A stretch of 64,000 bases of DNA, from the NCBI GenBank assembly GCA_964344555.1, contig CAYFNK010000004.1, positions 494 to 64,493 on the forward strand, given 5' to 3'. The stretch is from Candidatus Woesearchaeota archaeon (GTDB lineage: Archaea > Nanobdellota > Nanobdellia > SCGC-AAA011-G17 > PNOQ01). The position numbers were made by a program, and so were the translations under genes. This document shows positions 6,678-35,777 of this stretch, in pieces. Within the stretch, counting starts at the first letter, position 1, and each line of letters opens with the position of its first letter. The notes below the pieces were generated by a model that was given only the letters and a program-made list of their open reading frames with translations, did no database searches and was not told where the DNA came from.

Positions 6678-6766
6678 AGCCTCAGGAGAGATTCGAACTC
6701 TCAACCTGCTGCTATCTTTGGATTAACCCATACAAGGCAGCTGCTCTACCGTTGAGCCACTGAGGC
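6678..6766 (-). tRNA. tRNA-Thr(TGT) with a 17-nt intron at 37/38 (6714..6730)
   Basis: Minus-strand read: GCCTCAG TG GCTC AACGGTA GAGC A GCTGC CTTGTA[TGGGTTAATCCAAAGAT]A GCAGC AGGTT GAGAG TTCGAAT CTCTC CTGAGGC T. Confidence 0.85.
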
Positions 6767-11206: not shown

Positions 11207-11219
11207 TTTAGTAATTTTC

Positions 11220-13055
11220 ATGGTTAATAATAAAAGTTTAAAGTTTTTAGTATTGTTTTTATTAGTTATTTTTATTTCTTCTTGTGTTCAAGAAGATAGC
11301 CCTAGAGCACCAATAAATGTAGATAATCGTCAATGGATTGATGATGGTTGTCGTTATGGTGATTGGGAAGACCCTGAAGATTATTGTAAGCCTGGGGAGA
11401 TGTTTCAGATTTTGGTAGAGGATGAAGGTTGTTCTTCTCACTCTGAATGTGGTCAAGGAGAATATTGTCATAGTACTGGAGAATGTGTAACTTATAGCGA
11501 TGATTATTGTATCAATAATGATTGTTTCTTGGGAGATGGCGACTGTGATCCTAATCAGTGTAATACTGGAGTATGTAGTCAAACTTTAGATAATTGTAAT
11601 TTTGGTAATGGTATAACTAATGATGCCGATTGTTGTGTAAGTTGTTTGCCAACTGGTAATGAGTGTAATAGTGATTCAGAGTGTTGTAATAATAATTGTA
11701 ATAATAATGGATTTTGTGCTGTAGGCGGAGGGGGAGGAGGAGAGCCAGACATTCCTGTTTCAGAACTTTTACATTCTCCTGGTGTTGGAAGAAATACAAA
11801 AAACGATATGAATAATAGAGATTTTAATTGGTTTTTGAAAAAAATTAGATTACGAGAAAAAGAAAGTATTTTTAGTTATAGGGAAGACAATATGCAGTGT
11901 ATTCCGCATCCTGCTTGTTCAACTTGTGTAGATTTGCATGCCAATAATTATGATGAAAATATTGATTTATTGTCTTATGGTTGCGATTATTATGCAGATG
12001 AAAGAGATTTGTCCATTAGAACAGATTCATTTTGTAAACGAACATTCCACTTCTCTACAGGTCCATTTTTCCTTTCTGAAGGAAATGGAGCATGCGAAAG
12101 CGAGCAACATCCTGGAGAAGGATGTTCTGCAGTAGGAGAAGGATATGCAGTAAGTAATGTGGCATATACAAGACAATTTGATGGATCGGATTGGATTTCT
12201 AATGAAAATCTTTGTATAAGTGAAGGTGATAATTGTTGCATACTTCCTGGAACAGATGCTTATAATCCATTTGGCATACTTAGTCTTGATGATGCTTCTG
12301 ATCCAAATGCTTATTTGGAAGGATGGGCCTGTTGCGAATTGAATGAGGATTTATCAAATGATCCAAATTGGGGAAGTAATAGCCTAAGTTTCTTTAGATA
12401 CTGCGGAGATAATTTGTGTCAAGGATGGTTAGATTCTCAGAATCCTTCTCAAGTGTGTAGGGGACCAAATAATGATTTCCCAAGTAGTTATCCTGGTAGT
12501 GTTGATTGTATTCCTGATCCTGATTGGGAGAATGAGTATAGGGAAACATATGAGTCTTGTGTTTATAATACAAATGAACAAGAATTTAGAGATTGTGCTG
12601 ATTGTGTGTGGGTTGATGAAAATGGAGATCATAACTATGACTGTGATCCGGTGACAGAAACTATATATTTTGATTGTAGAACCGATACTTCTTGTGATTC
12701 GGGAGAGCAAGAGATATCTGGATTTTATTTAAGTAATCCGACTAATGGTCACGTGAGTACTAGTTATTCTAGTGATTATGACTGGAGAATATGTTGTAAT
12801 CCTGAACAGTTTACTGTTTCTACAGAAAGTGAAACTCAATTTTTGAGTTTGTCCTCAAATGATAATGCTCATGTTGCGCAGCCTGATACTTCTGGATATA
12901 CAAATTATGGAATAAGCGATCTTAGTAGTTGTAATATTGTAAGTGGAGGTTGTTCCGAAGAACAATTTTGTGTTTTGTCTATGAGTTCATTGAATAATGC
13001 ACACGCTGCATCATGCAATCAAGAAAATTATCCTTACAAGGTATGCTGTAGTTAG
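11220..13055 (+). CDS. Secreted cysteine-rich lipoprotein (611 aa) sharing the N-terminal cassette with the upstream gene and carrying a different C-terminus
   Basis: Signal plus lipobox FISSC. Residues about 70-187 are nearly identical to the 7382 gene product. The C-terminal part is divergent, with three N-[AG]-H...CC repeats. Confidence 0.85.
   Translation: MVNNKSLKFLVLFLLVIFISSCVQEDSPRAPINVDNRQWIDDGCRYGDWEDPEDYCKPGEMFQILVEDEGCSSHSECGQGEYCHSTGECVTYSDDYCINNDCFLGDGDCDPNQCNTGVCSQTLDNCNFGNGITNDADCCVSCLPTGNECNSDSECCNNNCNNNGFCAVGGGGGGEPDIPVSELLHSPGVGRNTKNDMNNRDFNWFLKKIRLREKESIFSYREDNMQCIPHPACSTCVDLHANNYDENIDLLSYGCDYYADERDLSIRTDSFCKRTFHFSTGPFFLSEGNGACESEQHPGEGCSAVGEGYAVSNVAYTRQFDGSDWISNENLCISEGDNCCILPGTDAYNPFGILSLDDASDPNAYLEGWACCELNEDLSNDPNWGSNSLSFFRYCGDNLCQGWLDSQNPSQVCRGPNNDFPSSYPGSVDCIPDPDWENEYRETYESCVYNTNEQEFRDCADCVWVDENGDHNYDCDPVTETIYFDCRTDTSCDSGEQEISGFYLSNPTNGHVSTSYSSDYDWRICCNPEQFTVSTESETQFLSLSSNDNAHVAQPDTSGYTNYGISDLSSCNIVSGGCSEEQFCVLSMSSLNNAHAASCNQENYPYKVCCS
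11427..11779. repeat. Copy 2 of the 353-bp near-identical cassette
   Basis: See copy 1. Same reading frame and same position relative to the lipobox in both genes. Confidence 0.9.
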
Positions 13056-13082
13056 AAAACTATTTAAATAAAATAAAATAAA

Positions 13083-14231
13083 ATGAAGTATATGAAAAAA
13101 AGAGGTATATCTCCATTAATAGCAACTATTCTTTTAGTAGGATTAGTTATAGTTATTGCTTTAATTGTTTTTAACTGGATTACTTTTCTTGCACAGTATA
13201 AATTAGATGAAACTGGAGAGACTATTGATATTTATTCTTCTAGCTTAGACTTTGATTTTGAATGTACAAATGATGTTGATAATGGAAAGTTTAAGGTTTT
13301 GTTCCATAATGAATATGACGGACCAATAACATCTTTTGTTATTGTTTTTGATGATGGAAGTATACGGGAAGTGGGAAAAGATGAGGTTTATCTAAATTCT
13401 TTTGAATCTAAACTTGAAATATATGGGGGAGATGATTATTTGAGTACCAATAATTTAAGAGTTATTCCTCAAATCCAAATCGGTGATGAGTTGAAGACTT
13501 TGAATTATAAAGAAGTAACCAAAAGTTGCGAAGGGGAAATTATTGATGAAGGAGATAACGGAGAAAGTCATACTACCCCAATTACTAGTTGTGAAGTTAT
13601 TGATTTTCCTGGAAACTATGAAATAACAGTTGATCTTGAGATAGAAAATCAGAAAGATTGCATTGTAATAGACTCTGATGATGTTACACTTACTTGTTCT
13701 GAAGGACGTAATATAAGTGCTGAAACATTGGGGGGACAATCTCAAGAGTTTAGGGCATCTGGTATAAAAGTAGAAAATTCAGATAATGTTATATTGGATT
13801 TAGGAGATTGTATAATTTCGAATTTTTATTATGGTCTTTGGATTGTTGATTCCGAAGGAACCCAAATTAATGAAGGAGTAATTGGAAATACTGCTCAACA
13901 TGGACTAATTATTGGAAATTATGAATTTGGACCTGATAGAGGCAGCCCTAATACTATCATTAACGGATTATCTAGAACAGAAACTATGAATCTTCAATCT
14001 GGCTTAAATATTATAAGTGTAGAAATTGGATCTCTTAATACTGAAGTAAACGATTTAGATCTTTGTGGATTTGTTTTGTATTGCTCTCAAGTTGAAGGAG
14101 CAGAAGGAACTCTGAGTGTATCAGGTTCAAATAATACTCTTGCATATGTTGAAGAGAATTCAGATTATGAAGACTGTGAGGATGTCAATTTAACTGAAGA
14201 ATGTTCGCTTGGAGGGTGTTTGACATGCTAA
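13083..14231 (+). CDS. Pilin-like N-terminus fused to a beta-helix-like, Cys-containing extracellular domain
   Basis: MKYMKKRGISPLIATILLVGLVIVIALIVF is a class III signal; the RGISPLIATILLVG stretch is identical to that of the 6853 gene. The C-terminal region has repeated G-x-x-I/V-x-N-S patterns (IKVENSDNVILDLGDCIISN, GLWIVDSEGTQINEGVIGN, HGLIIGN) typical of right-handed beta-helix proteins. Confidence 0.7.
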   Translation: MKYMKKRGISPLIATILLVGLVIVIALIVFNWITFLAQYKLDETGETIDIYSSSLDFDFECTNDVDNGKFKVLFHNEYDGPITSFVIVFDDGSIREVGKDEVYLNSFESKLEIYGGDDYLSTNNLRVIPQIQIGDELKTLNYKEVTKSCEGEIIDEGDNGESHTTPITSCEVIDFPGNYEITVDLEIENQKDCIVIDSDDVTLTCSEGRNISAETLGGQSQEFRASGIKVENSDNVILDLGDCIISNFYYGLWIVDSEGTQINEGVIGNTAQHGLIIGNYEFGPDRGSPNTIINGLSRTETMNLQSGLNIISVEIGSLNTEVNDLDLCGFVLYCSQVEGAEGTLSVSGSNNTLAYVEENSDYEDCEDVNLTEECSLGGCLTC

Positions 14232-14262: not shown

Positions 14263-15168
14263 ATGAAAAATATTCCTGAGTTTAAAGAAAAATTTATTGA
14301 AAGATATTCTAAACTAACAAACTTCAAAAAATTTAAAGAATATTCTCTAAAAAAACAAGATAAATCTATTCGTGTAAACACATTAAAAATAAAATCCTTA
14401 AAATTAAAAGATTTCAAATTAAAACAAATTCCTTGGCATAAAGATGGTTTTTTCATCTCTGGAAAGAGAACAGACTTAGGAAACTTACCAGAACATGGCC
14501 TAGGTTATTTTTATATCCAAGAAGCTTCATCAATGATTCCACCTTTAGTTTTAAACCCAAAAGAAAATGATTTTGTTTTAGATATGGCTGCAGCACCTGG
14601 TTCAAAAACAACCCAAATGGCAGCAATGATGAGAAATAAAGGCTTAATATTAGCTAATGATGTAGATCACAAAAGAATAATATCTCTAAACTCAAACTTA
14701 CAAAGATGTGGAGTTACAAATACAGTTACTACAATTCTAGAAGGAAGATTTTTCAAGAATTATCAATTTGATAAAATATTATTAGATGCTCCTTGTTCTG
14801 GAACGGGAACATTAAGAAAGTCACCAAATACAATTCAGGATTGGAGTCAAAATATTATTAATAGATTGTGCGGAATACAGAGACAATTAATAAGAACTGC
14901 TTTTGAAAATTTAAAAGAAGGAGGAACTCTAGTTTATTCCACTTGTACCTTAGAACCTCAAGAAGATGAGGGTATAGTTTCTTATTTATTAGATCAATAC
15001 GATAATGCTAAATTAGAAAAAATAAATATAAAGAATATAAAATCAAGTAGTCCTGTTCTAGAGTTTGAAGGAAATAAATATAGCAAAGAAGTAAAAAATT
15101 GCTTAAGAATTTGGCCACAGGATAATGATACTGATGGTTTTTTTGTTGCTAAAATAAAAAAAATCTAA
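14263..15168 (+). CDS. NOL1/NOP2/Sun-family RNA cytosine-C5 methyltransferase
   Basis: YIQEASS, DMAAAPGSKTT, DAPCSGTGTLRKSP and LVYSTCTLEPQEDE, including both catalytic Cys motifs. Confidence 0.9.
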   Translation: MKNIPEFKEKFIERYSKLTNFKKFKEYSLKKQDKSIRVNTLKIKSLKLKDFKLKQIPWHKDGFFISGKRTDLGNLPEHGLGYFYIQEASSMIPPLVLNPKENDFVLDMAAAPGSKTTQMAAMMRNKGLILANDVDHKRIISLNSNLQRCGVTNTVTTILEGRFFKNYQFDKILLDAPCSGTGTLRKSPNTIQDWSQNIINRLCGIQRQLIRTAFENLKEGGTLVYSTCTLEPQEDEGIVSYLLDQYDNAKLEKINIKNIKSSSPVLEFEGNKYSKEVKNCLRIWPQDNDTDGFFVAKIKKI

Positions 15169-16124
15169 TGTCCGTTTTCTAAATTATAAATATCTGTTTC
15201 TGAGTCAATATCTTCTTCTATTTCTTTTGAATATATTTCTATTAATTTAAAATTAGTATCAAATATCTTAGATAGTTTCGATTCAACATCATCTATTGAA
15301 AGATTTTTCTTTCTGTACTTTTTAACTTCTGGACTAATATATTTGTAAAGGGTCCATATGTTTTTTGGAATTAATAATTTTCTAGAGTTGTAAGCTATGT
15401 CTATAAATTCCTTTTTACCTATTTCATTTGGATTTGCATAAATCATATTTCCTATTCTAAATCCTCTTCTTCCATGTTTGTCATAAATCTTATCTGGTTC
15501 ATGTTTGTCATCTATCAATTTTAATGGAGGTCTTTTCTTGTTAGTAATTCCAGTTTCCCATCCTATAATTGGAAAGTATGCATCATATTCCCCATCACAT
15601 CTTTTCAAAAAATCTCTTATAGAGAAAGGAGTAATCTTAGGAATATCTGATGCTAAAAATAATGAATGTTTTCTAGCGTTACTTGCTTCATAACCAATTA
15701 ATGCGTTTTCTAAGATGCTTCCTTCTTGTTGTACAGTATTAATTTGTTTGGAATATTTCTTTTTTTCTAGAAATCTATCTAGTCTATCTTTTTCCCCAAC
15801 TATAGTTATATCGTCTATGATTGGACTTTGTTCTAGTGCAGATAAAACATAATATATTAATGGTTGTTTTTTTGAACCTCTTTTTAGTCTTACTTTCTTT
15901 AATGGTTTGTATCCCTTGCCTAGAAGATATTTATCTTTGTAATATTTATCAGTTAGTTTCTTTTCTAAATCACTTAGATTCTTCTTAATCTTTCCTCCAG
16001 CCATAACTATTACTTTTACCATTATAATTCTTATTTTTGGACAAATATTTGCTTTAAATATATTTCTTTTTAAGTGCATTGTTGCGTTATCGGGACTTAT
16101 AACCCTTAAATCTCTCAACCCCAA
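15165..16124 (-). CDS. MobA-like (GT-A fold) NTP transferase with a C-terminal extension; likely real start at 16022
   Basis: MVKVIVMAGGKIKK (the Gly-rich NTP loop) begins at the internal Met (16022). LFLASDIPKITPFSIRDFL resembles the MobA/CofC-type D-x-P region. The first 34 codons of the listed ORF look like read-through. Confidence 0.6.
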   Translation of the reverse strand: MGLRDLRVISPDNATMHLKRNIFKANICPKIRIIMVKVIVMAGGKIKKNLSDLEKKLTDKYYKDKYLLGKGYKPLKKVRLKRGSKKQPLIYYVLSALEQSPIIDDITIVGEKDRLDRFLEKKKYSKQINTVQQEGSILENALIGYEASNARKHSLFLASDIPKITPFSIRDFLKRCDGEYDAYFPIIGWETGITNKKRPPLKLIDDKHEPDKIYDKHGRRGFRIGNMIYANPNEIGKKEFIDIAYNSRKLLIPKNIWTLYKYISPEVKKYRKKNLSIDDVESKLSKIFDTNFKLIEIYSKEIEEDIDSETDIYNLENGH

Positions 16125-16287
16125 AATCTTTCAGTTATAACTATAAAATAGTAAAACTTAAAAACAACTTAGATCTAATAAAGTTATAAAAATAACCTCA
16201 GAAAAAGAAAGAAAAAGGCATTACTCTAAGGTATATGAAGGAATAAGATTTATTGATTGGAATAAATTCTTTGATGCTACACATAGC

Positions 16288-16968
16288 TTGGAGGAAATAG
16301 TCTTAGAATGCTTTCCAGAAGATAAACCATTTATGAAGCTAGTTGGTTCTTCATCTACTGGAACGATGAGAAAAGGCCATGAAGATTTAGATTATGCAGT
16401 TGCTTTTCAAAATCGCCTTGACAACAACGAATTTTTAGATAAAATAAAAGATATAAATTTGAATATCACTAAGATTAAACAAAATAAACATTATGGATAT
16501 ATTAAAATCAGTGGTGAATTCTCAGGAATGAAATTCGTTCTTGTTCCAATGATTCATCCAAACGGAAAAATTGAGACTTACGAACATGACGCATTTTATC
16601 ATTCTGAATTGATCAATAAACTAAAAAGAGAAGATCATCCTTTTAATTCGATCTTAGCAAAAGAATTTTTCTCTCAGCTAGGCGTATACAAGGAGGTCAA
16701 GGGCATTTCCATTGAATTGTTAATTTTAAAATACAGAGATTTTGATGAAATGTTAAAGGCATTTGTAGAAAATGATTCTTTAAGAGTTAACTTTAGCCAA
16801 AATAATTTACGTTATTCTACAAGCCCACTTGTAGTAGATTATCCTTATTTTGGGGGTCGTTCGTTTACCGAAAAAGTCAATCGTGAGACCTATTCACGTA
16901 TTCAGGAATCTGCGATTAAAGTTTTAAACGACCCAAAATATTTAATTGGGAGCAAAAATGACAAATGA
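16288..16968 (+). CDS. Pol-beta superfamily nucleotidyltransferase resembling only the head and neck of the archaeal CCA-adding enzyme
   Basis: GSSSTGTMRKGHEDLDYAV is the G[SG]...D-x-D motif. LGVYKEVKGISIELLILKYRDF parallels NGVYGAESYIKGFSGYVLEVLIIHYGSF in the true cca gene at 23560. The listed start is TTG, and the frame is open upstream to 16162 without an ATG. Confidence 0.6.
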   Translation: MEEIVLECFPEDKPFMKLVGSSSTGTMRKGHEDLDYAVAFQNRLDNNEFLDKIKDINLNITKIKQNKHYGYIKISGEFSGMKFVLVPMIHPNGKIETYEHDAFYHSELINKLKREDHPFNSILAKEFFSQLGVYKEVKGISIELLILKYRDFDEMLKAFVENDSLRVNFSQNNLRYSTSPLVVDYPYFGGRSFTEKVNRETYSRIQESAIKVLNDPKYLIGSKNDK

Positions 16969-17548
16969 AAGGATAATCCTTATTGATTTTTGGGGTACTA
17001 TCGTTGAAAGTGAAAAAAGAAATAAATTGTGGGGTCTAGTTTTAAAAGATTTTGAGAATCTAATCCTAGACAAGAAAGATATATTTGGTTATTGGAAAGA
17101 AAGATGGTTTAAGTCTGATATAAATAAAGGAGAATTCATTCAAGAATTAATCAAAAGGTTTGAATTAGGGAGTAAAACAACATCTCATATAGAGGATATT
17201 TTAAATTATAAAAACTTCACTCCAATAAATGGAAGAATAGATTCTTTATCAAAGTTAATGAGAGAAGGTTATGAAATTCACTTAGTGTCTGACTGCGGAT
17301 ATGATACAAAAGAATTTGTTGAAAATTCTGCCTTAAACAATATTTTATCTAAACGATTTTATTCTTTTGTGTACAAAACAACAAAAGAAGAAAATTTGTA
17401 TGGGTTAGTCGCGGAAGAAATAGGAACTAGTTGTATAATGATAGGGGACGATTATAAGAGAGACTATAAGATTCCTAAGGAATATGGATTTTCCTCTGCA
17501 CTTATAAGAAAAATAGATATTTTAGAGGATATAATATGCAAGAGTTAG
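16946..17548 (+). CDS. HAD-superfamily hydrolase-like protein with atypical motif I
   Basis: Motif I is IILIDFWGTIV (D-x-W-x-T instead of D-x-D-x-T), motif II is HLVSDCG, motif IV is IMIGDDYKRD. The likely start is ATG 16958. Confidence 0.6.
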   Translation: MGAKMTNERIILIDFWGTIVESEKRNKLWGLVLKDFENLILDKKDIFGYWKERWFKSDINKGEFIQELIKRFELGSKTTSHIEDILNYKNFTPINGRIDSLSKLMREGYEIHLVSDCGYDTKEFVENSALNNILSKRFYSFVYKTTKEENLYGLVAEEIGTSCIMIGDDYKRDYKIPKEYGFSSALIRKIDILEDIICKS

Positions 17549-18564
17549 AATACCTATTAGAAAAAGTTGAAAGAGAAAAATTAATGAAAATCTCTCATAG
17601 AGATAATTTTACTGATATTTATGAAGAGTACGCTAATATATTCTTAAATAAAAGCAGTCTTAAAAAGGATGTGTTAAATCGAAAATTGATTGAACCCCTA
17701 GATAAAGGTATCTTTTTAGTGGAACATGATGATATGAAGCTTTATGATGGAATGTTGTGGATGTCTAGAGAGGTAGATTATATTGGAAAAATGGACTATC
17801 TTTTTACAGTTCCAATGTGGGATTGGTGGATAAATCCCTTGTTCAGCAGAAAAACTCATAGGGATAAAAATAAATCTATTTTAGTCATTGATAAATTTGA
17901 AGAGAATGAAAAAGAATGTAAGAAAATGATAGCTTCGGAGGGTTTTATTACTACAGAATCTTACGACTTGAAACATCCGACTCTTGAATTAACCCAGTTT
18001 TATAGGTATTTAGATTTATTACTTCCAATAAATTTTGCCAGAGAATTAAAGAGAATGAGCAAATTTATAGATGAATTTAATCCTGATAAAATCAATTTTG
18101 TATTAAGAGGGGGATATTTCTTAAAGGAATTTTTTGATTTTTTTAAAGGGAAGGTGGATTTATTGAACCCAAGAGATAACGGCTATCAACCAAATCCAAA
18201 TGAGCTTTACATTGATGATTGTATTGGTTCAACGAGGACTTTCAGTTCCCTTGGATTTTCTGGCAGAGAAACATTTAATTTTTGCTGTTTAAATAGCACA
18301 CTTCCAGGCAGAGTTTATCAGGAATACTTTCCAAATGTAAATTTTAATTTGCCATCAGATCTATTAAATGTTTATTCTTGTAGACTCTTTGAAAAAAATC
18401 CTCGTATTATAGGACTTGATTATTCGAAAAGGGGGTTGCATTTTTATAATAATCCTGTTAGGGAGAATCTTATATCTAAAGTAAAAAATTTTCTTAAAAC
18501 TCCTAATATAGAAGATAAAACTTATAAATTTGCAATGGAGTTAATTAATCATGGTAAAAAATAA
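17536..18564 (+). CDS. Hypothetical protein with a C-terminal type I phosphoribosyltransferase-like region
   Basis: INFVLRGGYFLKEFFDFF resembles the HPRT VLKGG..F..DL segment. ELYIDDCIGSTRTF resembles the PRPP loop (hhhhDD...[ST]G.T) with G replaced. The N-terminal 170 aa have no motif. Confidence 0.4.
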   Translation: MQELEYLLEKVEREKLMKISHRDNFTDIYEEYANIFLNKSSLKKDVLNRKLIEPLDKGIFLVEHDDMKLYDGMLWMSREVDYIGKMDYLFTVPMWDWWINPLFSRKTHRDKNKSILVIDKFEENEKECKKMIASEGFITTESYDLKHPTLELTQFYRYLDLLLPINFARELKRMSKFIDEFNPDKINFVLRGGYFLKEFFDFFKGKVDLLNPRDNGYQPNPNELYIDDCIGSTRTFSSLGFSGRETFNFCCLNSTLPGRVYQEYFPNVNFNLPSDLLNVYSCRLFEKNPRIIGLDYSKRGLHFYNNPVRENLISKVKNFLKTPNIEDKTYKFAMELINHGKK

Positions 18565-19378
18565 AATTATTTTAGATACCGATATTGGTTCTGATATTGA
18601 TGATGCCTATGCTTTAGTCTTTGCCTTAAACTCACCTGAAATAGAAATAAAGGCAATTATAACAAATAACTCGGAAGTGGAAAGAAAAGCCAGGATAGCC
18701 CGAGCGTTTACAAAAGAAATCCCTATTTTTACTGGAATTGAAGTTGATAAAGGGGTTTTAACTACAACAATAAGAGATGGAGATTATGAGCCAAGACCTC
18801 TTCAAAATAATCTTAATTTTTTTAAGGATAAAGACTTAATTTATGTATCTATTGGGGCACTATCAAATTTAGCCTTTTTCTTGGAAAGGGGCATCAAATT
18901 CAAAAAAATAATAATCATGGGGGGTTCTTTAGATATTGATTACAAAGGAAGAAATAAAAAAATCCCAGAGTGGAATTTGAATTGTGATTTAGAAGCAACT
19001 AAAAAAATCTTTGACTGTGATTTAAATATTCTACTTGTTCCTTTGGATGCTACATGGAATTTGGAATTGAGTGACAAACAAATAAAAGAAATAGACCAAA
19101 ATAATAAACAAACCTCAATTTTATTAAAGAAGCATCTTCGAGAAATGAGAGAATTTCTTTTTAAAAAATTTGATATAATTTCCAAAAAACCTGTTTTACA
19201 CGATCCTTTAGCAGTTTATGCTTCATTTGGAAATAAATTTTTTTCGTCAACTAATATGAAAATAGCTATAAATGATAAAGGTTTGCTTAATAAAGATGAA
19301 AATGGAAAAGAAATGAAAGTAATTAATATTTCAAAAAAAGAGTTTATTAATTTCTTTTTGGAGAGAATTTTAAAATGA
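18551..19378 (+). CDS. Inosine-uridine preferring nucleoside hydrolase family protein
   Basis: N-terminal fingerprint IILDTDIGSDIDDAYAL (DxDxxxDD), followed by IMGG and a VLHDPLAV-type segment. Confidence 0.85.
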   Translation: MVKNKIILDTDIGSDIDDAYALVFALNSPEIEIKAIITNNSEVERKARIARAFTKEIPIFTGIEVDKGVLTTTIRDGDYEPRPLQNNLNFFKDKDLIYVSIGALSNLAFFLERGIKFKKIIIMGGSLDIDYKGRNKKIPEWNLNCDLEATKKIFDCDLNILLVPLDATWNLELSDKQIKEIDQNNKQTSILLKKHLREMREFLFKKFDIISKKPVLHDPLAVYASFGNKFFSSTNMKIAINDKGLLNKDENGKEMKVINISKKEFINFFLERILK

Positions 19379-20802
19379 ATAATAATTTAGACTATGAAGA
19401 ATGCCTTAGAGAATTTAAAAAGTCTCTTGTAGATGGAAGCGAATTTGATATTTTGATAGAAGGAATTATTAAAAATATATCAACAAATAGAATAAGATGG
19501 TTTGATGTTGGAATAGGCGATGGACATTATTTAAAGAAGATAGTAACAACTTTAGAAAACAAAGGGTTTGTGGTAGAAGTAACGGGAATTGATAATGATG
19601 AAAAGTCTGTAAGAAAAGCTAAATCTCTCTTTCCAGATGGGAAAATTCTTCAAGGAGACTTCCTTAAAATAGATTTAGAAGGAAAATTCGACGTTTTTAG
19701 TTTTAATCAATCTATATATTATTTTTATAACAAAAATTCAGTTATTGAAAAGTGCTTAGAAAATCTCGCGGAAGGAGGTTTATTAATCTGTGTTTGTTGG
19801 TCTGAAAAAGACAAAATATTCCAATTCCATAAATCCGTATTTGGCAAATGGACATTGGGGGCTTTTACTTCCGAGAATTTTAAAGAATTAATTTCAAAAA
19901 AGAACAAACTGAATTTAGTCTGTGATAATCTGTTTAAAGGAAAAGTAAATTTTAAACTTTGGAAAGATAAAAATAATTTAGAAAAAAATCTTTATGTAAT
20001 CTCTCGAATCCCTGTTTTAGAAGGGATTTCTGAAGTAAATCTAGAAATAGCTGAAACACTAATTAATGAACAAAAAGATAATGAAACAAGAGTAAATGGG
20101 GTGATTATCGCAAAAAAATTGTATGACATTCCTAATTTCACAAGAGAAAAAATAGAATTTCTCTTGAAAGAAAGGTTTCCTAATTATAATAAAAAAGTTT
20201 CCCAAATAAAAGGAGATTTAGAAGCTCTCTTTATGGGTTCTTGGGAAAAAGAAACTGAATATTTATCTGATTATATAGCCTCGGGCAGAGTACTTGAAAT
20301 TTGTTGTGCTGCAGGGTTAAAAAGTATTATTTTGGCAAAGAAACACAAAGTAGTTGCTATTGATATAAACGAAGATAGGTTAAATGCAGCAAGAGATAAT
20401 GCTGTTCTTTTCGAAGTTAATCAAAATACTGAATTTAAGAATGTTAATGCTAAAAAATTTAATGAATTAAAAAAATTGGGAAAATTTGATGTTATTTATG
20501 TTGATGTTGATTGGAGAGAAAATTTGTCTCATCCAATCAAGAAACAAAATATAGATCCGTTCAAAACGTGTCCTAGAACTGATAAACTATATTTAAATCT
20601 TAGAAAACTACACCCAAAAACCCCAATCATATTTAAGATTTCCCCTTTTGTGAGGGTTAAAAATTTAACCAAACTAGATCTGTGCATAATTGAAGAGCTT
20701 TATATAGATGGAAAATTTTTATCATATAATGTTTATTTTGATCCCAAAATCAAAAAGTCACGATGGCAGGCAATTCATCTTTTTAACAATGAGGTAATTT
20801 GA
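19375..20802 (+). CDS. Fusion of two class I SAM-dependent methyltransferase domains; the C-terminal one is RNA cap guanine-N2 (TGS1/Methyltransf_15)-like
   Basis: N-terminal domain WFDVGIGDGHY...FDVFSFNQSIYYF. C-terminal domain VLEICCAAGLKSIILA...VVAIDINEDRLNAARDNA...FDVIYVDVDW. Confidence 0.6.
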   Translation: MNNNLDYEECLREFKKSLVDGSEFDILIEGIIKNISTNRIRWFDVGIGDGHYLKKIVTTLENKGFVVEVTGIDNDEKSVRKAKSLFPDGKILQGDFLKIDLEGKFDVFSFNQSIYYFYNKNSVIEKCLENLAEGGLLICVCWSEKDKIFQFHKSVFGKWTLGAFTSENFKELISKKNKLNLVCDNLFKGKVNFKLWKDKNNLEKNLYVISRIPVLEGISEVNLEIAETLINEQKDNETRVNGVIIAKKLYDIPNFTREKIEFLLKERFPNYNKKVSQIKGDLEALFMGSWEKETEYLSDYIASGRVLEICCAAGLKSIILAKKHKVVAIDINEDRLNAARDNAVLFEVNQNTEFKNVNAKKFNELKKLGKFDVIYVDVDWRENLSHPIKKQNIDPFKTCPRTDKLYLNLRKLHPKTPIIFKISPFVRVKNLTKLDLCIIEELYIDGKFLSYNVYFDPKIKKSRWQAIHLFNNEVI

Positions 20803-21308
20803 AAATGAAAACTTATATAATGGTAGATATTGAAGCAAATGGTCCGATACCAGGAGACTATTCTATGACCTCTTTAGGGGCGGTAGTAGTAGATGAAAAA
20901 TTAGATAAGACTTTCAAGGTTAATATTAAGCCAATATCTAAAAAGTTTGATCCAAGGAGGAGACAATTTGTAGATGAAAGAAATGTAGTTGATGCAAAAG
21001 AAGCTATGCAAAAATTTAAAGAATGGATTCTGAAAAATTCTTCTGGCGAACCGGTTTTTATTTCAGATAATAACGGTTTTGATTGGATGTTTGTATGCTG
21101 GTATTTCTGGCATTTTTTAGAAGAGAATCCCTTAGGATATAACTCTCAAAATTTAAACTCATTAAATAAAGGTTTAAATAAAGATTTACGAGCTAAGATT
21201 GATTTATTGAGAGAAAGAAACCTTACTCATGATGCTTTAGAAGATGCCAAAGACAATGCAAAAATATTTTTTGAATTAAAAAAAAATTTTTTTAAGAAAG
21301 ACATTTAA
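20799..21308 (+). CDS. DEDDh 3'-5' exonuclease (DnaQ/Rv2179c-like)
   Basis: Exo I is MVDIEANGP, Exo II is FISDNNGFDWMF, Exo III is HDALEDAKDNA. Confidence 0.7.
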   Translation: MKMKTYIMVDIEANGPIPGDYSMTSLGAVVVDEKLDKTFKVNIKPISKKFDPRRRQFVDERNVVDAKEAMQKFKEWILKNSSGEPVFISDNNGFDWMFVCWYFWHFLEENPLGYNSQNLNSLNKGLNKDLRAKIDLLRERNLTHDALEDAKDNAKIFFELKKNFFKKDI

Positions 21309-22354
21309 GTGGTTAAACTTATAACTTGCTCATCTTTATCAAATCAAGCCATCTGTTCTTACCTAACTCTAATTTAGGAATAGCTAATTCATAAGGACGA
21401 CAGCCTATTCCTTGATGTTTTCTTATGAAGTTATAATAGATTTCATAACCTTTCATGATCGCAGAAGCAGATTCTATACAACCATGAAAGCCACGCATGA
21501 CTTTTGTTCTTTCCCTAATGGAATTATGTAATCTCTCGATAGGATGGTTAAACCCTCTTTCAGAAGCTATTACAACATTATGAATGATTGGACTTTTGTG
21601 ATTCCAATGGGTTTTCAGACCAAAACTTTTCTTTAGCATTCTTGGGTAGCCCTTAAGTCCATCAGTTGTTATAACCTTAACTTGGCTTCCTGTTGCAAAC
21701 TTACCTCTTTTTAGAACTTTAACCATGTTATCTATTGTTCTGCTTCTCATATAACCAGAAGAAACCATGAATCTCGTTGTTGTATCCATTACATCAACAA
21801 ACCAGTTTTGTTCTCTGCCTTTCTGATATTTGCTTATTCTTCTGTGATACTCCATTTCATCAGATTGTAATTCAACTCCAGATTTGACTTGTAAGCTGTC
21901 TGTTAAATTGCTTATCATAACTGCATATTTTACAATCAAGCGATAAGCAGTAGAATAATGACAATTCTTGGGATAGAACGTTTTAAGATGCTCTTGTATC
22001 TTCCTAAAACTCATTCCATTGTAATACAAATCCATACAGAGAGTGATTTTCTTTTCGTGATTTTTCATCTTATAAAAACCCTCATCAATAGAAAATCTTT
22101 TGCCACAATCTTTGCAACCAAATCTTTGAACCTTGCCTCTGTGTTCGGTTTTTCTTATTCCTCTTTTGATTACCTTGTTAGAACTACAAAAAATACAAGA
22201 AACTTTTTTATACTTCTGTTCTATTATTTCTTTGGATTTCATTTGTTTAGAGACGTTTGGAATCTAGAGGGTGTTAACGCACCCTCTTACTTTATTTAGT
22301 ATAACTATACAAAGTAATACTTCTATATAAACCTTTCGGAGTTAAGTAACCACT
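21308..22354 (-). mobile_element. IS6-like insertion sequence (about 1.05 kb)
   Basis: A single transposase ORF is flanked by imperfect terminal inverted repeats: left AGTGGTTAAACTTATAACT (21308-) and the reverse complement of the right end, AGTGGTTACTTAACTCC (ends at 22354). The first 8 nt are identical, with gapped matches beyond. No target duplication seen. Confidence 0.55.
21319..22242 (-). CDS. DDE transposase, IS6-family-like, with an N-terminal zinc finger
   Basis: CIFCSSNKV...CKDCGKRF zinc finger. Candidate DDE segments are SDEMEY...WFVDVMDTTT, VITTDGLKGYP and IERLHNSIRERTKVMRGFH. Confidence 0.75.
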   Translation of the reverse strand: MKSKEIIEQKYKKVSCIFCSSNKVIKRGIRKTEHRGKVQRFGCKDCGKRFSIDEGFYKMKNHEKKITLCMDLYYNGMSFRKIQEHLKTFYPKNCHYSTAYRLIVKYAVMISNLTDSLQVKSGVELQSDEMEYHRRISKYQKGREQNWFVDVMDTTTRFMVSSGYMRSRTIDNMVKVLKRGKFATGSQVKVITTDGLKGYPRMLKKSFGLKTHWNHKSPIIHNVVIASERGFNHPIERLHNSIRERTKVMRGFHGCIESASAIMKGYEIYYNFIRKHQGIGCRPYELAIPKLELGKNRWLDLIKMSKL

Positions 22355-22410
22355 AACAAAGTATAACTATATTTAGTAAGATTTATATAGTTTGATTATT
22401 AATTTATCTT

Positions 22411-22557
22411 ATGCCAGAAATAGAGATTAAAGTCAAAGGATACAAATGTAATAATTGTGGAAATGAATGGCTTCCTCGTTCAAAAAAAGAAAAGCCATTA
22501 ATTTGTCCCAAATGCAAATCTGCAAGATGGGATAAACCACCAAGAAAGAAAACTTAA
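22411..22557 (+). CDS. Unlisted 48-aa zinc-ribbon protein
   Basis: MPEIEIKVKGYKCNNCGNEWLPRSKKEKPLICPKCKSARWDKPPRKKT, with a CxxC...CPxC pattern also present in ORF 32751. Confidence 0.4.
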   Translation: MPEIEIKVKGYKCNNCGNEWLPRSKKEKPLICPKCKSARWDKPPRKKT

Positions 22558-22604
22558 TTTTTTTACTTATCTAAGTCCCGCAGATGCAACAATACACTTT
22601 TTAA

Positions 22605-22618
22605 GAAAGCTTTATAAT
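22605..22618 (+). promoter_or_regulatory. BRE/TATA element
   Basis: GAAAGCTTTATAAT ends 22 nt before ATG 22641. Confidence 0.45.
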
Positions 22619-23559: not shown

Positions 23560-24771
23560 ATGAAAAAGGTTCTTGAAAATATTTTACCTAAAACTGAAGA
23601 AAAAAGTGTGTTGAAGAAGTATATTGAAGAGATTATTAACAAATTTAAATCTTTAAAAAACGTTAAATTTGTAATTGGGGGTTCTTATGCTAAGGGAACT
23701 TGGTTGTCTGAAAATAAAGAAGCAGACATTTTTGCCAAATTTAATTATGAAAAATACAGAGATAAAGATATTTCTAAAGAGTTGAAGAAATTATTAGATA
23801 AGAAAAAAATCAAAGTTGAAATCGTTCATGGTTCTAGAGATTATTATCATTTTATGGAAGAAGGAGTTCTATTTGAGATAATTCCTGTTTTAGATATAAG
23901 AGATTATAGAAAAGCATTGAACGTTACTGACGTTTCTCCGTTACATGTTAATTATGTTAAGAAAAATACAGATAAAAAATTGAAAAATGAGATAAGATTG
24001 TTAAAGCAATTTTGTAAGTCTAATGGTGTTTATGGTGCTGAAAGTTACATCAAGGGATTTTCCGGTTACGTTCTTGAAGTTTTAATTATTCACTATGGAT
24101 CTTTTAAGAAATTATTGAATGCTGCTAAGAAATGGAAGGATAAGGAAGTATTAGACCCTGCTAAACACTATAAGACTAAAAATGAAGCTTTGCTAAATTT
24201 GGATTCTTCTAAGAAAGTTTCTCCATTAATAATCATAGATCCTGTTCAAAAGAATAGGAATGTTGCTGCAGCATTAAATAAAAAAAGTTTTAATGAATTT
24301 ATTAGCCTGTCTAAACTTTATGATGGATCTGAATCTTTTTTCATGAAGAAAGAGATTAGTTTGAACAAATTAAAGGGATACAATATTTTTAAGATAACTC
24401 CTTTAGAAGGAAAGAAAGACATTGTTGGTGCTAAGTTGTTAAAGGCATTAGAAAAAACTAAGAATTCTATTGAAAGGGAAGGATTGAAAGTTTATGACTA
24501 TGGATGGAAATGGGAAGAATATGCTTATTTCTGGTTTAAAACTGATAAAACTTTACCAAGTAGAATTAAACATTATGGTCCAAAGACCAGTATGAAGAAA
24601 CATGGGGAAGCATTTAGGAAAAAATGGAAAGGAAAGAAATTAAAAAAAGAAAAAGGGAAATATTATGTTGTAATTAAAAGAGGAAAGATATATTCTAAAG
24701 ATATAATACAAGATATTTTAAAAAGAAGCGATGTAAAATCTAATTTTAGATACCAAAAAATTTATAAATAA
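23560..24771 (+). CDS. cca: CCA-adding enzyme (archaeal class I tRNA nucleotidyltransferase)
   Basis: GGSYAKGTWLSENKEADIFAKF, RLLKQFCKSNGVYGAESYIKGFSGYVLEVLIIHYGSF. Full length of 403 aa including body and tail. Confidence 0.9.
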   Translation: MKKVLENILPKTEEKSVLKKYIEEIINKFKSLKNVKFVIGGSYAKGTWLSENKEADIFAKFNYEKYRDKDISKELKKLLDKKKIKVEIVHGSRDYYHFMEEGVLFEIIPVLDIRDYRKALNVTDVSPLHVNYVKKNTDKKLKNEIRLLKQFCKSNGVYGAESYIKGFSGYVLEVLIIHYGSFKKLLNAAKKWKDKEVLDPAKHYKTKNEALLNLDSSKKVSPLIIIDPVQKNRNVAAALNKKSFNEFISLSKLYDGSESFFMKKEISLNKLKGYNIFKITPLEGKKDIVGAKLLKALEKTKNSIEREGLKVYDYGWKWEEYAYFWFKTDKTLPSRIKHYGPKTSMKKHGEAFRKKWKGKKLKKEKGKYYVVIKRGKIYSKDIIQDILKRSDVKSNFRYQKIYK

Positions 24772-29090: not shown

Positions 29091-29181
29091 GGGGCTATAG
29101 TTCAACAGCAGAATACCGGTCTCCAGAATATTTAAAAAATGGAGTAAACCGGCGATGGGAGTGCAAATCTCTCTGGCCCCA
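29091..29181 (+). tRNA. tRNA-Trp(CCA) with a 20-nt canonical intron (29127..29146)
   Basis: GGGGCTA TA GTTC AACAGCA GAAT A CCGGT CTCCAG[AATATTTAAAAAATGGAGTA]A ACCGG CGAT GGGAG TGCAAAT CTCTC TGGCCCC A. BHB: CTCC pairs with GGAG, bulges AGA and TAA. Confidence 0.85.
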
Positions 29182-35763: not shown

Positions 35764-35777
35764 TGTATATGGGCGAA

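What the first reader, a model, noticed from the sequence alone, without database searches (positions are those of the whole stretch)
15165..21308. Translationally coupled six-gene nucleotide/nucleoside/RNA-end enzyme operon of unknown function, next to an IS
Genes 16288..21308 are chained by overlapping stops and starts: 23 nt (11 nt if ATG 16958 is the start), then 13, 14, 4 and 4 nt. In order they encode:
1. A pol-beta nucleotidyltransferase that looks like only the head and neck of the CCA-adding enzyme.
2. A HAD-fold protein.
3. A protein with an HPRT-like PRTase region.
4. An IUNH nucleoside hydrolase.
5. A double SAM-methyltransferase whose second domain is RNA cap guanine-N2 MTase-like.
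6. A DEDDh 3'-5' exonuclease.

A MobA-like NTP transferase is divergently transcribed, and an IS6-like element abuts the 3' end.

I am not aware of a described pathway or defence system with this composition. Three readings are plausible, all inference:
- (a) A nucleic-acid scavenging/salvage line (exonuclease to NMP, to nucleoside, to base, to NMP) for a nucleotide-auxotrophic symbiont.
- (b) An RNA 3'-end repair or modification system (exonuclease, CCA-like NTase, phosphatase, methyltransferases).
- (c) A nucleotide-signal or nucleotide-depletion immune system (pol-beta NTase plus nucleosidase/PRTase/exonuclease effectors).
Basis: inference. Interest (0 to 1): 0.8.

Follow-up and report, generated by a model that had tools for sequence, protein, structure and literature searches.

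The report
Mobile nucleotide-modifying gene cluster in DPANN archaea
The six overlapping genes are a real, recurring and apparently undescribed gene cluster of tiny symbiotic (DPANN) archaea. It pairs a cut-down CCA-enzyme-like nucleotidyltransferase with a cap-methylase-like double methyltransferase, a CBASS-type exonuclease and nucleotide-recycling enzymes, and it probably makes or handles a methylated nucleotide, though its function is unproven.

Summary

The set recurs in about 25 distinct loci, almost all in Woese-, Pace- and Nanoarchaeota. Gene order is shuffled but the content is kept, so the genes are functionally linked.

The cluster has two modules:
- **Module 1 (always present):** a head-and-neck-only class-I CCA-like NTase, always adjacent or fused to SAM methyltransferase(s). 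Here the methyltransferase has two domains and the second is TGS1-like. A Cap18-like DEDDh exonuclease usually follows.
- **Module 2 (movable):** a phosphohydrolase (an atypical HAD, or a YfbR-like HD that is often fused), a new PRTase-like protein, and sometimes an IUNH hydrolase.

Neighbouring genes are repeatedly nucleoside or nucleotide kinases and "house-cleaning" hydrolases.

The family is tiny, patchy and decaying in some genomes. In two unrelated genomes it carries the same transposase as a co-diverged g5-g6-transposase block. It matches no known pathway or defence system.

My best reading, by inference only, is an accessory, mobile pathway that makes or handles a methylated, guanine-type nucleotide or oligonucleotide. 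General salvage, RNA 3'-end processing and CBASS-like signalling remain rivals. The divergent MobA-like gene is not part of the cluster.

The parts
16162..16968 (+). g1: truncated class-I CCA-enzyme-like pol-beta nucleotidyltransferase with head and neck only. The frame is open from 16162, and the conserved N-terminal part (about 33 codons, 16189-16287) lies upstream of the first canonical start, TTG 16288. ATA codons sit at 16186 and 16192 where homologues have Met.
   Evidence: - TIGR03671, E 4e-12, positions 43-256 of 410, 45.6 bits against a cut-off of 281.
- AlphaFold model pLDDT 93.8.
- Best Foldseek hits are the A. fulgidus CCA enzyme (TMq 0.75, E 2e-11), then NF90/NF45, CdnC, OAS1 and Cid1.
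- GS...D33xD35, H105 and K125 are kept. The third carboxylate position is an invariant Val: FVLVP against FEIIP in the window's own CCA enzyme.
- Start-codon problem.
16958..17548 (+). g2: atypical HAD-fold hydrolase. Motif I is D-x-W-x-T and motifs II-IV are present. The alternative start is TTG 16946.
   Evidence: - Weak HAD hits: PF00702 at 16.9 bits, TIGR01549 at 23.5 against 23.3, and DREG-2 at 2e-5.
- Alignment of six orthologues shows an invariant Trp at the Asp+2 position.
17536..18564 (+). g3: a new family. The N-terminal domain (about aa 1-180, invariant WDWWINP) is unassigned. The C-terminal domain (about aa 181-342) is type-I PRTase-like, with an RGG loop and an IDDCIGSTRT PRPP-type loop.
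   Evidence: - No Pfam, NCBIfam, PADLOC or PHROG hit.
- Only 14 homologues in 5.8 billion proteins, four of them fused to a YfbR-like HD domain.
- Motifs.
- AlphaFold model pLDDT 82.8. Foldseek finds only PRTases, with probability up to 1.0 and E >= 6e-3.
18551..19378 (+). g4: IUNH-family ribonucleoside hydrolase, short form of 275 aa.
   Evidence: - PF01156, E 7e-31, 108 bits. RihC-like, E 1e-22.
- The N-terminal DTDIGSDIDD cluster and the LHDPLA histidine are visible in the translation.
19375..20802 (+). g5: two-domain SAM methyltransferase. Domain 1 (about aa 27-165) is of the small-molecule methyltransferase type. Domain 2 (about aa 262-475) is TGS1/Methyltransf_15-like, with an invariant D-x-D-W-R where TGS1 has S-P-P-W.
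   Evidence: - Pfam.
- Profile against PDB: human TGS1 3GDH, E 3e-8, aligned from the pre-Rossmann D.E..F..W.E motif to motif IV.
- Alignment of 22 homologues.
- PADLOC mad2, E 2e-27, of uncertain meaning.
20805..21308 (+). g6: Cap18-like DEDDh 3'-5' exonuclease. The alternative start is TTG 20799.
   Evidence: - PADLOC CBASS "Effector/Exonuclease" model, E 7e-34.
- E. coli Cap18 (PDB 7T2S), E 7e-22. That 7T2S is Cap18 is stated in PMC11208441.
- DEDDh residues are conserved and the mean column identity among seven orthologues is 88%.
21319..22242 (-). DDE transposase with an N-terminal zinc ribbon, IS1/IS6-like. It converges on g6, 10 nt after the g6 stop. The element extends to about 22597-22617.
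   Evidence: - NCBIfam IS1 7.7e-12 and IS6 1.3e-11, both below cut-off.
- The same gene (95.5% aa) sits at the same position after g6 in L038.
- Window 19366-22617 aligns contiguously with L038 at 83.8% nt identity.
- Third-codon-position identity is 0.64 (g5), 0.64 (g6) and 0.69 (transposase).

Best explanation
**Shown.** This is a functionally linked, accessory and mobile gene cluster made of two modules.

- **Module 1** is a cut-down CCA-enzyme-like NTase that still has the NTP-binding residues and two of the three catalytic carboxylates. It is always adjacent or fused to SAM methyltransferase(s). In the window the methyltransferase has two domains, and the second is TGS1-like, the exocyclic-amine / guanine-N2 type. 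A Cap18-like exonuclease usually follows.
- **Module 2** is a phosphohydrolase (HAD or HD), a PRTase-like protein, and sometimes an IUNH nucleosidase.

**Inferred mechanism.**
1. The NTase binds an NTP. It either transfers the NMP to make a short phosphodiester-linked product, or it presents the nucleotide to its methyltransferase partner.
2. The methyltransferase methylates a purine (guanine-type) nucleotide or terminal residue, possibly twice.
3. The Cap18-like exonuclease hydrolyses the small linked product or intermediate back to NMPs.
4. Module 2, with the neighbouring kinases and "house-cleaning" hydrolases, converts the non-canonical NMP to nucleoside, then to base, then back to NMP. 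This recycles it and keeps it out of the cell's own nucleic acids.

**Inferred role.** The cluster is a dispensable, horizontally moving trait. It is most likely conflict-related (defence, counter-defence or antagonism) rather than core nucleotide supply.
For: **Linkage**
- The same families co-occur in about 25 distinct loci in at least six different orders:
  - g1-[HAD-g3-IUNH]-g5-g6
  - g1-HD::g3-g5-g6
  - g1-g5-g6-[HAD-g3-IUNH]
  - g1..g5-g6-HD-g3
  - [HAD-g3-IUNH]-g1-g5
  - g5..IUNH-HAD-g3-g1
  - Module 1 alone
- HAD and HD replace each other, and HD is either fused to g3 or a separate gene.
- An NTase::methyltransferase fusion family of about 10 cluster representatives exists. hhalign gives 99.9% probability that its NTase domain is homologous to g1.

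**Nucleotide theme**
- Neighbours include a uridine-kinase-like gene in every type-B locus that retains its upstream flank (7 loci), Ham1/RdgB fused to a kinase, AdK-like and dTMPK-like kinases, a YjjG/CTE7-like HAD, NT5C, NUDIX, and MazG-like next to the bacterial g5 homologue.
- TGS1, the closest solved relative of g5 domain 2, acts on free m7G nucleotides as well as on caps. This last point is from my own knowledge.
- CBASS Exo/Cap18 enzymes cut small 2'-5'-linked dinucleotides and showed no activity on the DNA and RNA substrates tested (bioRxiv 10.1101/2025.03.04.641389).

**Accessory and mobile**
- Only 7 loci in 6 genomes were found among 185,579 species representatives.
- Only 13 g1 cluster representatives reach E<=1e-30 among 1.84 billion.
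- One MAG carries two cluster types.
- Decay is visible: the window g1 has lost its start, the L016 g1 is frameshifted, and L042 has a g1N::g5C deletion fusion.
- The g5-g6-transposase block is shared with unrelated flanks.
- A g5 homologue occurs in a gammaproteobacterium.
- TA, defence or mobile genes lie within 10 kb in most contexts.
Against: - No substrate is known for any of the proteins.
- g1 lacks the third catalytic carboxylate. The position is an invariant Val, so g1 may not transfer nucleotides at all.
- g2 lacks the Asp+2 general acid that is typical of HAD phosphomonoesterases.
- The PRPP-type loop of g3 is degenerate in the HD-fused subfamily.
- The residue equivalent to the stacking Phe of the CBASS exonuclease is Leu in the window copy.
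- Methyltransferase domain 1 is generic.
- No hit was found in IMG/VR. Only one locus looks viral.
- The TA/defence neighbourhood was not compared with a DPANN baseline.
- Kinases together with nucleotidases would also suit plain salvage.
Confidence: 0.35

Rival explanations
1. General nucleic-acid scavenging and house-cleaning line. The exonuclease releases NMPs. HAD or HD converts them to nucleosides. IUNH converts nucleosides to bases and ribose. g3 and the kinases rebuild NMPs. The NTase and methyltransferases serve an unrelated or regulatory purpose.
For: - The enzyme families of g2, g3, g4 and g6, plus the neighbouring uridine-kinase-like, PNP, AMP-phosphorylase-type (Glycos_transf_3), IMP cyclohydrolase, dCTP deaminase and NUDIX genes, are all salvage or sanitation families.
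- DPANN archaea are generally regarded as nucleotide auxotrophs. This is from my own knowledge.
Against: - The invariant core is NTase plus methyltransferase, which salvage does not explain. Module 1 occurs without Module 2 (L015, L019, L023).
- The cluster is very rare and patchy, and it is decaying in some genomes.
- g5 and g6 are far more conserved (82-91%) than expected for bulk catabolic enzymes.
- Transposase linkage.
Confidence: 0.25
2. RNA 3'-end (or 5'-end) tailing, trimming and methylation, or repair. The NTase adds nucleotides, the DEDDh exonuclease trims them, the methyltransferase marks the terminal residue, and HAD or HD heals phosphorylated ends. This would resemble HEN1 with TUTase and SDN, or Hen1-Pnkp.
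For: - The nearest folds to g1 are the CCA enzyme and terminal uridylyl- and poly(A)-transferases.
- g6 falls in the Rv2179c-like exoribonuclease Pfam family.
- HAD and HD phosphatases heal RNA ends in T4 Pnkp and in class-II CCA enzymes. This is from my own knowledge.
- TGS1 acts on RNA termini.
Against: - g1 lacks the body and tail domains that hold tRNA, and it lacks the third carboxylate.
- The operon has no ligase or polynucleotide kinase.
- A normal CCA enzyme is encoded 2.3 kb away.
- The PRTase-like protein, IUNH, nucleoside kinases and NTP pyrophosphatases act on small molecules.
- The HD domain is of the YfbR 5'-deoxynucleotidase type.
Confidence: 0.2
3. CBASS-like nucleotide-signal immunity. 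g1 makes an oligonucleotide signal. The Cap18-like exonuclease sets the activation threshold. HD::g3 or HAD-g3-IUNH act as nucleotide-depleting effectors.
For: - g6 matches the CBASS exonuclease model (7e-34) and Cap18 (7e-22).
- The g1 fold resembles CdnC and OAS1.
- Flanks are rich in TA, defence and mobile genes.
Against: - g1 hits no CD-NTase or SMODS model, whereas the window's true CCA enzyme does.
- g1 has an incomplete catalytic triad.
- No recognised effector or sensor domain is present.
- The always-present methyltransferase has no counterpart in CBASS.
- Cap18-like exonucleases also occur without CBASS in Borgs (PMC11208441).
Confidence: 0.1
4. Fortuitous packing of unrelated housekeeping genes in a compact genome.
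For: Overlapping junctions are common in the window: 21% of same-strand pairs overlap.
Against: The set is kept through several rearrangements, fusions and replacements, and across unrelated flanks.
Confidence: 0.02

Closest known systems
Archaeal class-I CCA-adding enzyme (TIGR03671; A. fulgidus structures 1R89, 4X4U)
   Same: - g1 shares the head and neck fold (TMq about 0.75).
- It keeps the GS...DxD motif and the His and Lys shared with the window's own CCA enzyme.
   Different: - g1 has no body or tail domains (about 260 aa against 400-450).
- The third carboxylate is replaced by Val.
- It scores 45.6 bits against a cut-off of 281.
- It is always paired or fused with a methyltransferase.
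CBASS with the Cap18/Exo accessory exonuclease (PDB 7T2S; bioRxiv 10.1101/2025.03.04.641389)
   Same: - g6 is a clear sequence homologue of Cap18.
- It is encoded in the same operon as a pol-beta NTase.
   Different: - The NTase is not a CD-NTase.
- There is no effector, and no HORMA/TRIP13 or E1/E2 genes.
- The obligatory methyltransferase and the nucleotide-recycling genes are foreign to CBASS.
Trimethylguanosine synthase TGS1 / Pfam Methyltransf_15
   Same: g5 domain 2 aligns with TGS1 from the pre-Rossmann motif through motif IV, and the stacking Trp is conserved.
   Different: - The motif is D-x-D-W-R instead of S-P-P-W-G-G.
- The domain is fused behind a second methyltransferase domain.
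- The context is prokaryotic, where no m7G caps are known.
Nucleotide salvage and house-cleaning enzymes (type-I PRTases, IUNH, YfbR, YjjG, Ham1, MazG)
   Same: Module 2 and most neighbouring genes belong to these families.
   Different: - g3 has an extra unassigned N-terminal domain and escapes the Pribosyltran models.
- g2 has D-x-W-x-T.
- These genes are tied to an NTase-methyltransferase core and to a transposase.
RNA-end systems: bacterial Hen1-Pnkp repair, and eukaryotic HEN1 with TUTase and SDN
   Same: The combination of enzyme classes is the same: nucleotidyltransferase, methyltransferase, 3'-5' exonuclease and phosphatase.
   Different: - There is no ligase or polynucleotide kinase and no Hen1-type methyltransferase.
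- Small-molecule nucleoside enzymes are present.
Plant purine-alkaloid (caffeine) pathway
   Same: The logic is the same: nucleotidase, then N-methyltransferase, then nucleosidase, then N-methyltransferase.
   Different: This is an analogy from my own knowledge only. There is no homology evidence, and that pathway has no NTase, exonuclease or PRTase-like step.

Membership tests
Class-I CCA-adding enzyme | Four-domain architecture (head, neck, body, tail) and a score above the TIGR03671 cut-off | tested here: not met
   g1 covers model positions 43-256 of 410 and scores 45.6 bits against 281.3. Homologues are 244-290 aa.
Class-I CCA-adding enzyme | Three catalytic carboxylates (E/D-x-D plus a third on a later strand) | tested here: not met
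   D33 and D35 are present. The third position is an invariant Val: FVLVP against FEIIP in the window's CCA enzyme.
Class-I CCA-adding enzyme | Pol-beta head and helical neck fold | tested here: met
   Foldseek top hits are 4X4U, 1UEU and 1R89, with TMq 0.72-0.76 and E about 1e-10 to 1e-11.
CBASS | CD-NTase (SMODS / CBASS cyclase models) | tested here: not met
   g1 has no PADLOC, Pfam SMODS or NCBIfam CBASS-cyclase hit at E<=0.1. The window's true CCA enzyme does hit them.
CBASS | Signal-activated effector protein | tested here: not met
   g2, g3 and g4 have no PADLOC hit. No recognised effector domain was found in any locus.
CBASS Exo / Cap18 clade | Sequence membership and DEDDh catalytic residues | tested here: met
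   PADLOC PDLC00753, E 7e-34. PDB 7T2S, E 7e-22. D10, E12, D95, H144 and D149 are invariant in the seven orthologues.
CBASS Exo / Cap18 clade | 2'-5' linkage selectivity (stacking Phe from the partner protomer) | tested here: inconclusive
   The equivalent residue is Leu in the window and in 3 orthologues, and Phe in 3 others. The activity cannot be tested here.
Type-I phosphoribosyltransferase | PRPP-binding loop (acidic pair followed by a small-residue/Thr loop) and a PPi loop | tested here: inconclusive
   RGG and IDDCIGSTRT are present in the window type. The HD-fused type has a degenerate DDCIVMxRN loop.
Type-I phosphoribosyltransferase | Recognition by family profiles, and fold | tested here: inconclusive
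   No Pfam or NCBIfam hit. Foldseek finds only PRTases, with probability up to 1.0 but E >= 6e-3 over about 110-160 residues.
IUNH nucleoside hydrolase | PF01156 above the gathering score, the N-terminal Asp cluster and the catalytic His | tested here: met
   108.4 bits against 34.2. DTDIGSDIDD and LHDPLA are visible in the translation.
HAD phosphatase | Motif I, DxDx(T/V), with the Asp+2 general acid | tested here: not met
   Motif I is D-x-W-x-T in all six orthologues. Motifs II-IV are present. Pfam HAD models score below their cut-offs.
TGS1 / Methyltransf_15 | Family profile match | tested here: met
   PF09445 scores 26.4 bits against 22. The profile matches TGS1 3GDH at E 3e-8.
TGS1 / Methyltransf_15 | S-P-P-W motif IV and an m7G substrate | tested here: inconclusive
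   An invariant D-x-D-W-R keeps the Trp but not the S-P-P. The substrate cannot be tested here.
Hen1-Pnkp RNA repair | Polynucleotide kinase, RNA ligase and a Hen1 methyltransferase | tested here: not met
   None of these domains appears in any cluster gene.
IS6 (or IS1) insertion sequence | Transposase above the family cut-off, and terminal inverted repeats | tested here: not met
   IS6 scores 44.6 against 125 and IS1 scores 45.6 against 100. No terminal inverted repeats were found.

The most novel reading that the evidence does not exclude
This would be a new class of nucleotide-based conflict system in DPANN archaea.
- A CCA-derived NTase and a TGS1-like double methyltransferase make a methylated, cap-like nucleotide or short oligonucleotide that acts as a signal or a toxic analogue.
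- A Cap18-type exonuclease gates it.
- A built-in sanitation and recycling arm (HAD or HD, the PRTase-like protein and IUNH) protects the producer.
- The whole unit moves between genomes as a transposase-linked cassette.
Probability: 0.2. Interest if true: 0.85.

Novelty: categorically new. Interest (0 to 1): 0.65.

Why it matters
- **New protein families.** If the core really methylates or conjugates free nucleotides, it would add a new chemistry (SAM-dependent nucleotide methylation coupled to a CCA-derived NTase) to the known repertoire of nucleotide-based immunity and antagonism. It would do so in DPANN archaea, where almost no such systems are characterised. The cluster defines three families that can be tested directly:
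  - a head-and-neck-only NTase with two carboxylates;
  - a protein with a new N-terminal domain and a PRTase-like C-terminal domain;
  - a D-x-W-x-T HAD.
- **Cap18 outside CBASS.** It shows a Cap18-type exonuclease working outside CBASS.
- **Gene mobility.** The co-diverged g5-g6-transposase block hints at cassette-like gene mobility in these reduced genomes.
- **If it proves to be specialised salvage.** It would still explain how some nucleotide-auxotrophic symbionts deal with modified nucleotides.

Tried and rejected
- **PDB sequence searches.** g1 alone found nothing. The g3 profile gave only noise.
- **PADLOC and PHROGs.** Nothing informative for g1-g4.
- **PADLOC mad2 hit of g5 (2e-27).** I followed this into the MADS preprint. 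Mad2 there is an N6-adenine DNA methyltransferase of a restriction-like system, and none of the other MADS genes is present. I treat the hit as methyltransferase-domain similarity, not membership.
- **IMG/VR scans with g1 and g5 profiles.** No relatives found, so a general viral origin is rejected. Only L023 looks viral.
- **BFVD fold search of g3.** Added nothing beyond PRTase-like hits.
- **IS ends.** No terminal inverted repeats were found, only a 12-nt direct repeat of doubtful meaning.
- **Literature searches.** Searches for the gene combination found nothing.
- **MobA-like g0.** Rejected as a member of the cluster. BLASTP found no homologue in any fetched locus (L001-L018 at E<=1e-5; L019-L043 at E<=1e-6).
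- **Sigma-70 promoter scan.** Not run, because the organism is archaeal.
- **De novo nucleotide synthesis.** Its absence cannot be judged from 64 kb.

Full report
**1. The observation**

The window has about 30% G+C. It encodes archaeal housekeeping genes: a full-length class-I CCA enzyme at 23560-24771, a proteasome beta subunit and an NSUN-type methyltransferase. Homologues of the cluster genes come from Woese-, Pace- and Nanoarchaeota MAGs, so the source is a DPANN archaeon.

The seven ORFs are where the finding puts them, and every domain call was reproduced:
- g0 is MobA-like, just below the Pfam cut-off.
- g1 matches only positions 43-256 of the 410-position archaeal CCA model.
- g2 is weakly HAD-IA.
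- g3 has no profile hit.
- g4 is a solid IUNH (E 7e-31).
- g5 has two SAM-methyltransferase domains, the second Methyltransf_15-like.
- g6 is a DEDDh exonuclease.
- The transposase is IS1/IS6-like but far below both cut-offs.

Minor corrections:
- g6 probably starts at ATG 20805, because its orthologues begin at MKTY. That gives a 2-nt spacer instead of a 4-nt overlap.
- g2 probably starts at ATG 16958.
- g1 has lost its canonical start. The conserved N-terminal part (about 33 codons, 16189-16287) is in frame upstream of TTG 16288, but the 42 open codons from 16162 hold no ATG, GTG or TTG, only ATA at 16186 and 16192.

Overlaps are common in this genome: 7 of 34 other same-strand pairs overlap. 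The run of tight junctions is therefore only mildly informative. Recurrence elsewhere is what matters.

**2. Recurrence and anatomy**

Searches with g3, g1 and g5, look-ups of their contigs, one scan of 185,579 species-representative genomes and one metagenome scan gave 44 loci. BLASTP mapping reduces these to about 25 distinct clusters.

The content is conserved while the order is not. Two modules emerge.

*Module 1* is g1 plus g5, usually with g6.
- It occurs alone in L015, L019/L032 and L023.
- g1 is never found apart from a methyltransferase. An exhaustive HMMER search of 1.84 billion representatives found only 13 close g1 clusters. The next relatives are about 10 clusters of 503-528-aa NTase::methyltransferase fusions, and only then come true CCA enzymes.
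- hhalign gives 99.9% probability that the fusion's NTase domain is homologous to g1.

*Module 2* is a phosphohydrolase plus g3, sometimes with IUNH.
- The phosphohydrolase is either the g2-type HAD (with IUNH) or a YfbR-like HD domain. The HD domain is either fused to the N-terminus of g3 or a separate adjacent gene in L035 and L037.
- Module 2 sits between g1 and g5 (window, L004, all HD-type loci), after g6 (L036, L035, L037) or before g1 (L026, L018).
- Even loci with Module 1 alone can have an ordinary HAD nucleotidase-like gene next door. L032 has a YjjG/CTE7-like HAD.

This pattern of shuffling, fusion and non-orthologous replacement is strong evidence that the genes work together.

g0 (MobA-like) has no homologue in any other locus and is not part of the unit.

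**3. The proteins**

*g1*
- The AlphaFold model has pLDDT 93.8. It superposes best on the head and neck of the A. fulgidus CCA enzyme (TMq about 0.75). The next matches are the pseudo-NTases NF90/NF45, then CdnC, OAS1 and Cid1.
- GS...D33xD35 and the His105 and Lys125 shared with the window's real CCA enzyme are invariant. The third catalytic carboxylate position is an invariant Val.
- g1 is therefore either an unusual two-carboxylate transferase or a nucleotide-binding partner of the methyltransferase.

*g5*
- Domain 2 aligns with human TGS1 from the pre-Rossmann motif to motif IV (E 3e-8). An invariant D-x-D-W-R replaces S-P-P-W.
- Domain 1 resembles small-molecule N- and O-methyltransferases.

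*g6*
- It is a sequence homologue of E. coli Cap18 (PDB 7T2S, E 7e-22; the identity of 7T2S is from PMC11208441). It also matches the PADLOC CBASS exonuclease model at 7e-34.
- A recent preprint reports that such exonucleases cut 2'-5'-linked dinucleotide intermediates and showed no detectable activity on the single- or double-stranded DNA and RNA substrates tested.
- The stacking Phe described there is Leu in the window copy and Phe in three of seven orthologues.

*g3*
- The model has pLDDT 82.8. It has an unassigned alpha/beta N-terminal domain with an invariant WDWWINP motif, and a C-terminal domain that matches only type-I PRTases.
- The RGG and DDCIGSTRT loops are present, but the second loop is degenerate in the HD-fused subfamily.

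*g2* has D-x-W-x-T in place of DxDxT in all six orthologues. It is therefore not a textbook phosphomonoesterase.

*g4* keeps the IUNH aspartate cluster and the catalytic His.

**4. Context**

Genes flanking the clusters are repeatedly nucleoside or nucleotide kinases and "house-cleaning" hydrolases for non-canonical nucleotides:
- Kinases: a uridine-kinase-like gene, divergent, in every HD-type locus that retains its upstream flank (7 loci); an AdK-like gene in L026; a dTMPK-like gene in L001; and a kinase fused to Ham1/RdgB in L018.
- Hydrolases: NUDIX, NT5C and a YjjG-like HAD.

A g5 homologue with a third methyltransferase domain (41% identity) occurs in the gammaproteobacterial symbiont Ca. 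Kentron. It sits next to a MazG-like pyrophosphatase inside a toxin-antitoxin island and has no g1.

Many archaeal loci also lie near TA, restriction, Fic, AbiE-type or MNT-HEPN genes. One locus is in a virus-like contig with a terminase and DNA methylases. I could not compare this with a DPANN baseline, so it is only suggestive. IMG/VR holds no relatives.

**5. Rarity, decay and mobility**

- Only 7 loci in 6 of 185,579 species representatives carry g1. This is a lower bound, because the scan is pattern-based. One MAG carries both architectures (L012 and L016).
- Signs of decay: the lost start in the window, a frameshifted g1 in L016 and a g1N::g5C deletion fusion in L042.
- g5 and g6 of the window are 82-91% identical to those of HD-type loci. 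g1 is only about 60% identical and g3 about 30%.
- Window 19366-22617 (g5, g6 and the transposase element) aligns contiguously at 83.8% nt identity with L038. L038 is an HD-type cluster on a 155-kb contig with unrelated flanks, and the same transposase (95.5% aa) sits 10 nt after g6.
- Third-codon-position identities are 0.64 (g5), 0.64 (g6) and 0.69 (transposase). The three genes have therefore diverged together as one block, with the transposase under the strongest constraint.
- The cluster is thus mosaic, and its 3' half travels with a transposase. The "IS next door" is part of the story.

**6. Interpretation**

Shown:
- The unit is functionally linked, modular, rare and mobile.
- It has an NTase-methyltransferase core, a Cap18-like exonuclease and a nucleotide-interconversion arm.

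Inferred:
- The core makes or handles a methylated purine nucleotide or short oligonucleotide.
- The exonuclease hydrolyses the linked product or intermediate.
- Module 2 and the neighbouring genes recycle or sanitise the non-canonical nucleotide.
- The trait is accessory and probably conflict-related.

I give this 0.35. The rivals are:
- Plain salvage and house-cleaning, 0.25. It does not explain the invariant NTase-methyltransferase core, the rarity or the mobility.
- RNA-end tailing, trimming and methylation, or repair, 0.2. The enzyme classes fit, but there is no ligase, no kinase and no tRNA-binding domain, and many enzymes act on small molecules.
- CBASS-like signalling, 0.1. The Cap18-like exonuclease fits, but there is no CD-NTase, no effector, and an unexplained methyltransferase.
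- Chance juxtaposition is effectively excluded.

**7. Comparison and novelty**

Membership tests fail for the CCA-adding enzyme, CBASS, Hen1-Pnkp and canonical HAD phosphatases. They are met only at the level of single domains (IUNH, the Cap18-like exonuclease, the Methyltransf_15 profile). No paper in the searchable library describes this combination.

I therefore rate it as a previously undescribed kind of multi-gene system built from known folds. The caveat is that its chemistry and biological role are inferred, not shown.

Noticed in passing
window 21319-22617; L038 11943-13240: The transposase after g6 is conserved (95.5% aa) at the same position in an unrelated genome, and it has diverged in step with g5 and g6. 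This may be an IS6/IS26-style translocatable unit with g5-g6 as passengers. No terminal inverted repeats were found. A 12-nt direct repeat, TTTTTAAGAAAG, lies at 21289-21300 and 22598-22609.
   Followed up: partly
window 16162-16290: The conserved N-terminal part of g1 (about 33 codons, 16189-16287; the frame is open for 42 codons from 16162) is in frame but has no ATG, GTG or TTG. ATA codons sit at 16186 and 16192. Either the start codon was lost or initiation is non-canonical. The public annotation starts the protein at an internal Met (211 aa).
   Followed up: partly
L016 583-1358; L042 4381-5094: Some genomes show decayed copies. In L016 g1 is split across two frames. In L042 a single ORF joins the g1 N-terminus to the g5 C-terminus, with Module 2 and most of g5 deleted.
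   Followed up: no
L024 6684-9273 (Ca. Kentron, Gammaproteobacteria): This is a bacterial homologue of g5 (41% identity) with a third methyltransferase domain. It is followed by a MazG-like pyrophosphatase and sits in a toxin-antitoxin island. It suggests transfer between domains of life.
   Followed up: partly
L023 (whole contig): A g1-g5 pair sits at the start of a virus-like contig. The contig has many small same-strand ORFs, a ParB-N6/N4 methyltransferase, a C5 DNA methylase and a faint terminase hit.
   Followed up: no
window 23560-24771: A bona fide archaeal CCA-adding enzyme lies 2.3 kb downstream of the CCA-like g1. It scores 271.8 bits, just under the curated cut-off of 281.3. It also weakly hits CBASS cyclase and SMODS models, which g1 does not.
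   Followed up: yes
window 6678-6766(-), 29091-29181(+), 33075-33194(-), 35692-35835(+): Rfam finds five tRNA hits. Three are unusually long (89-120 nt) and may contain introns. A weak 58-nt tRNA-like hit follows directly after the tRNA at 35692-35763.
   Followed up: no
window 7382-14231: Three consecutive large ORFs (1274, 611 and 382 aa) lie upstream of the cluster. The 611-aa and 382-aa products are Cys-rich and start with a hydrophobic N-terminal segment, so they are probably secreted or surface proteins. The 1274-aa product was not read.
   Followed up: no
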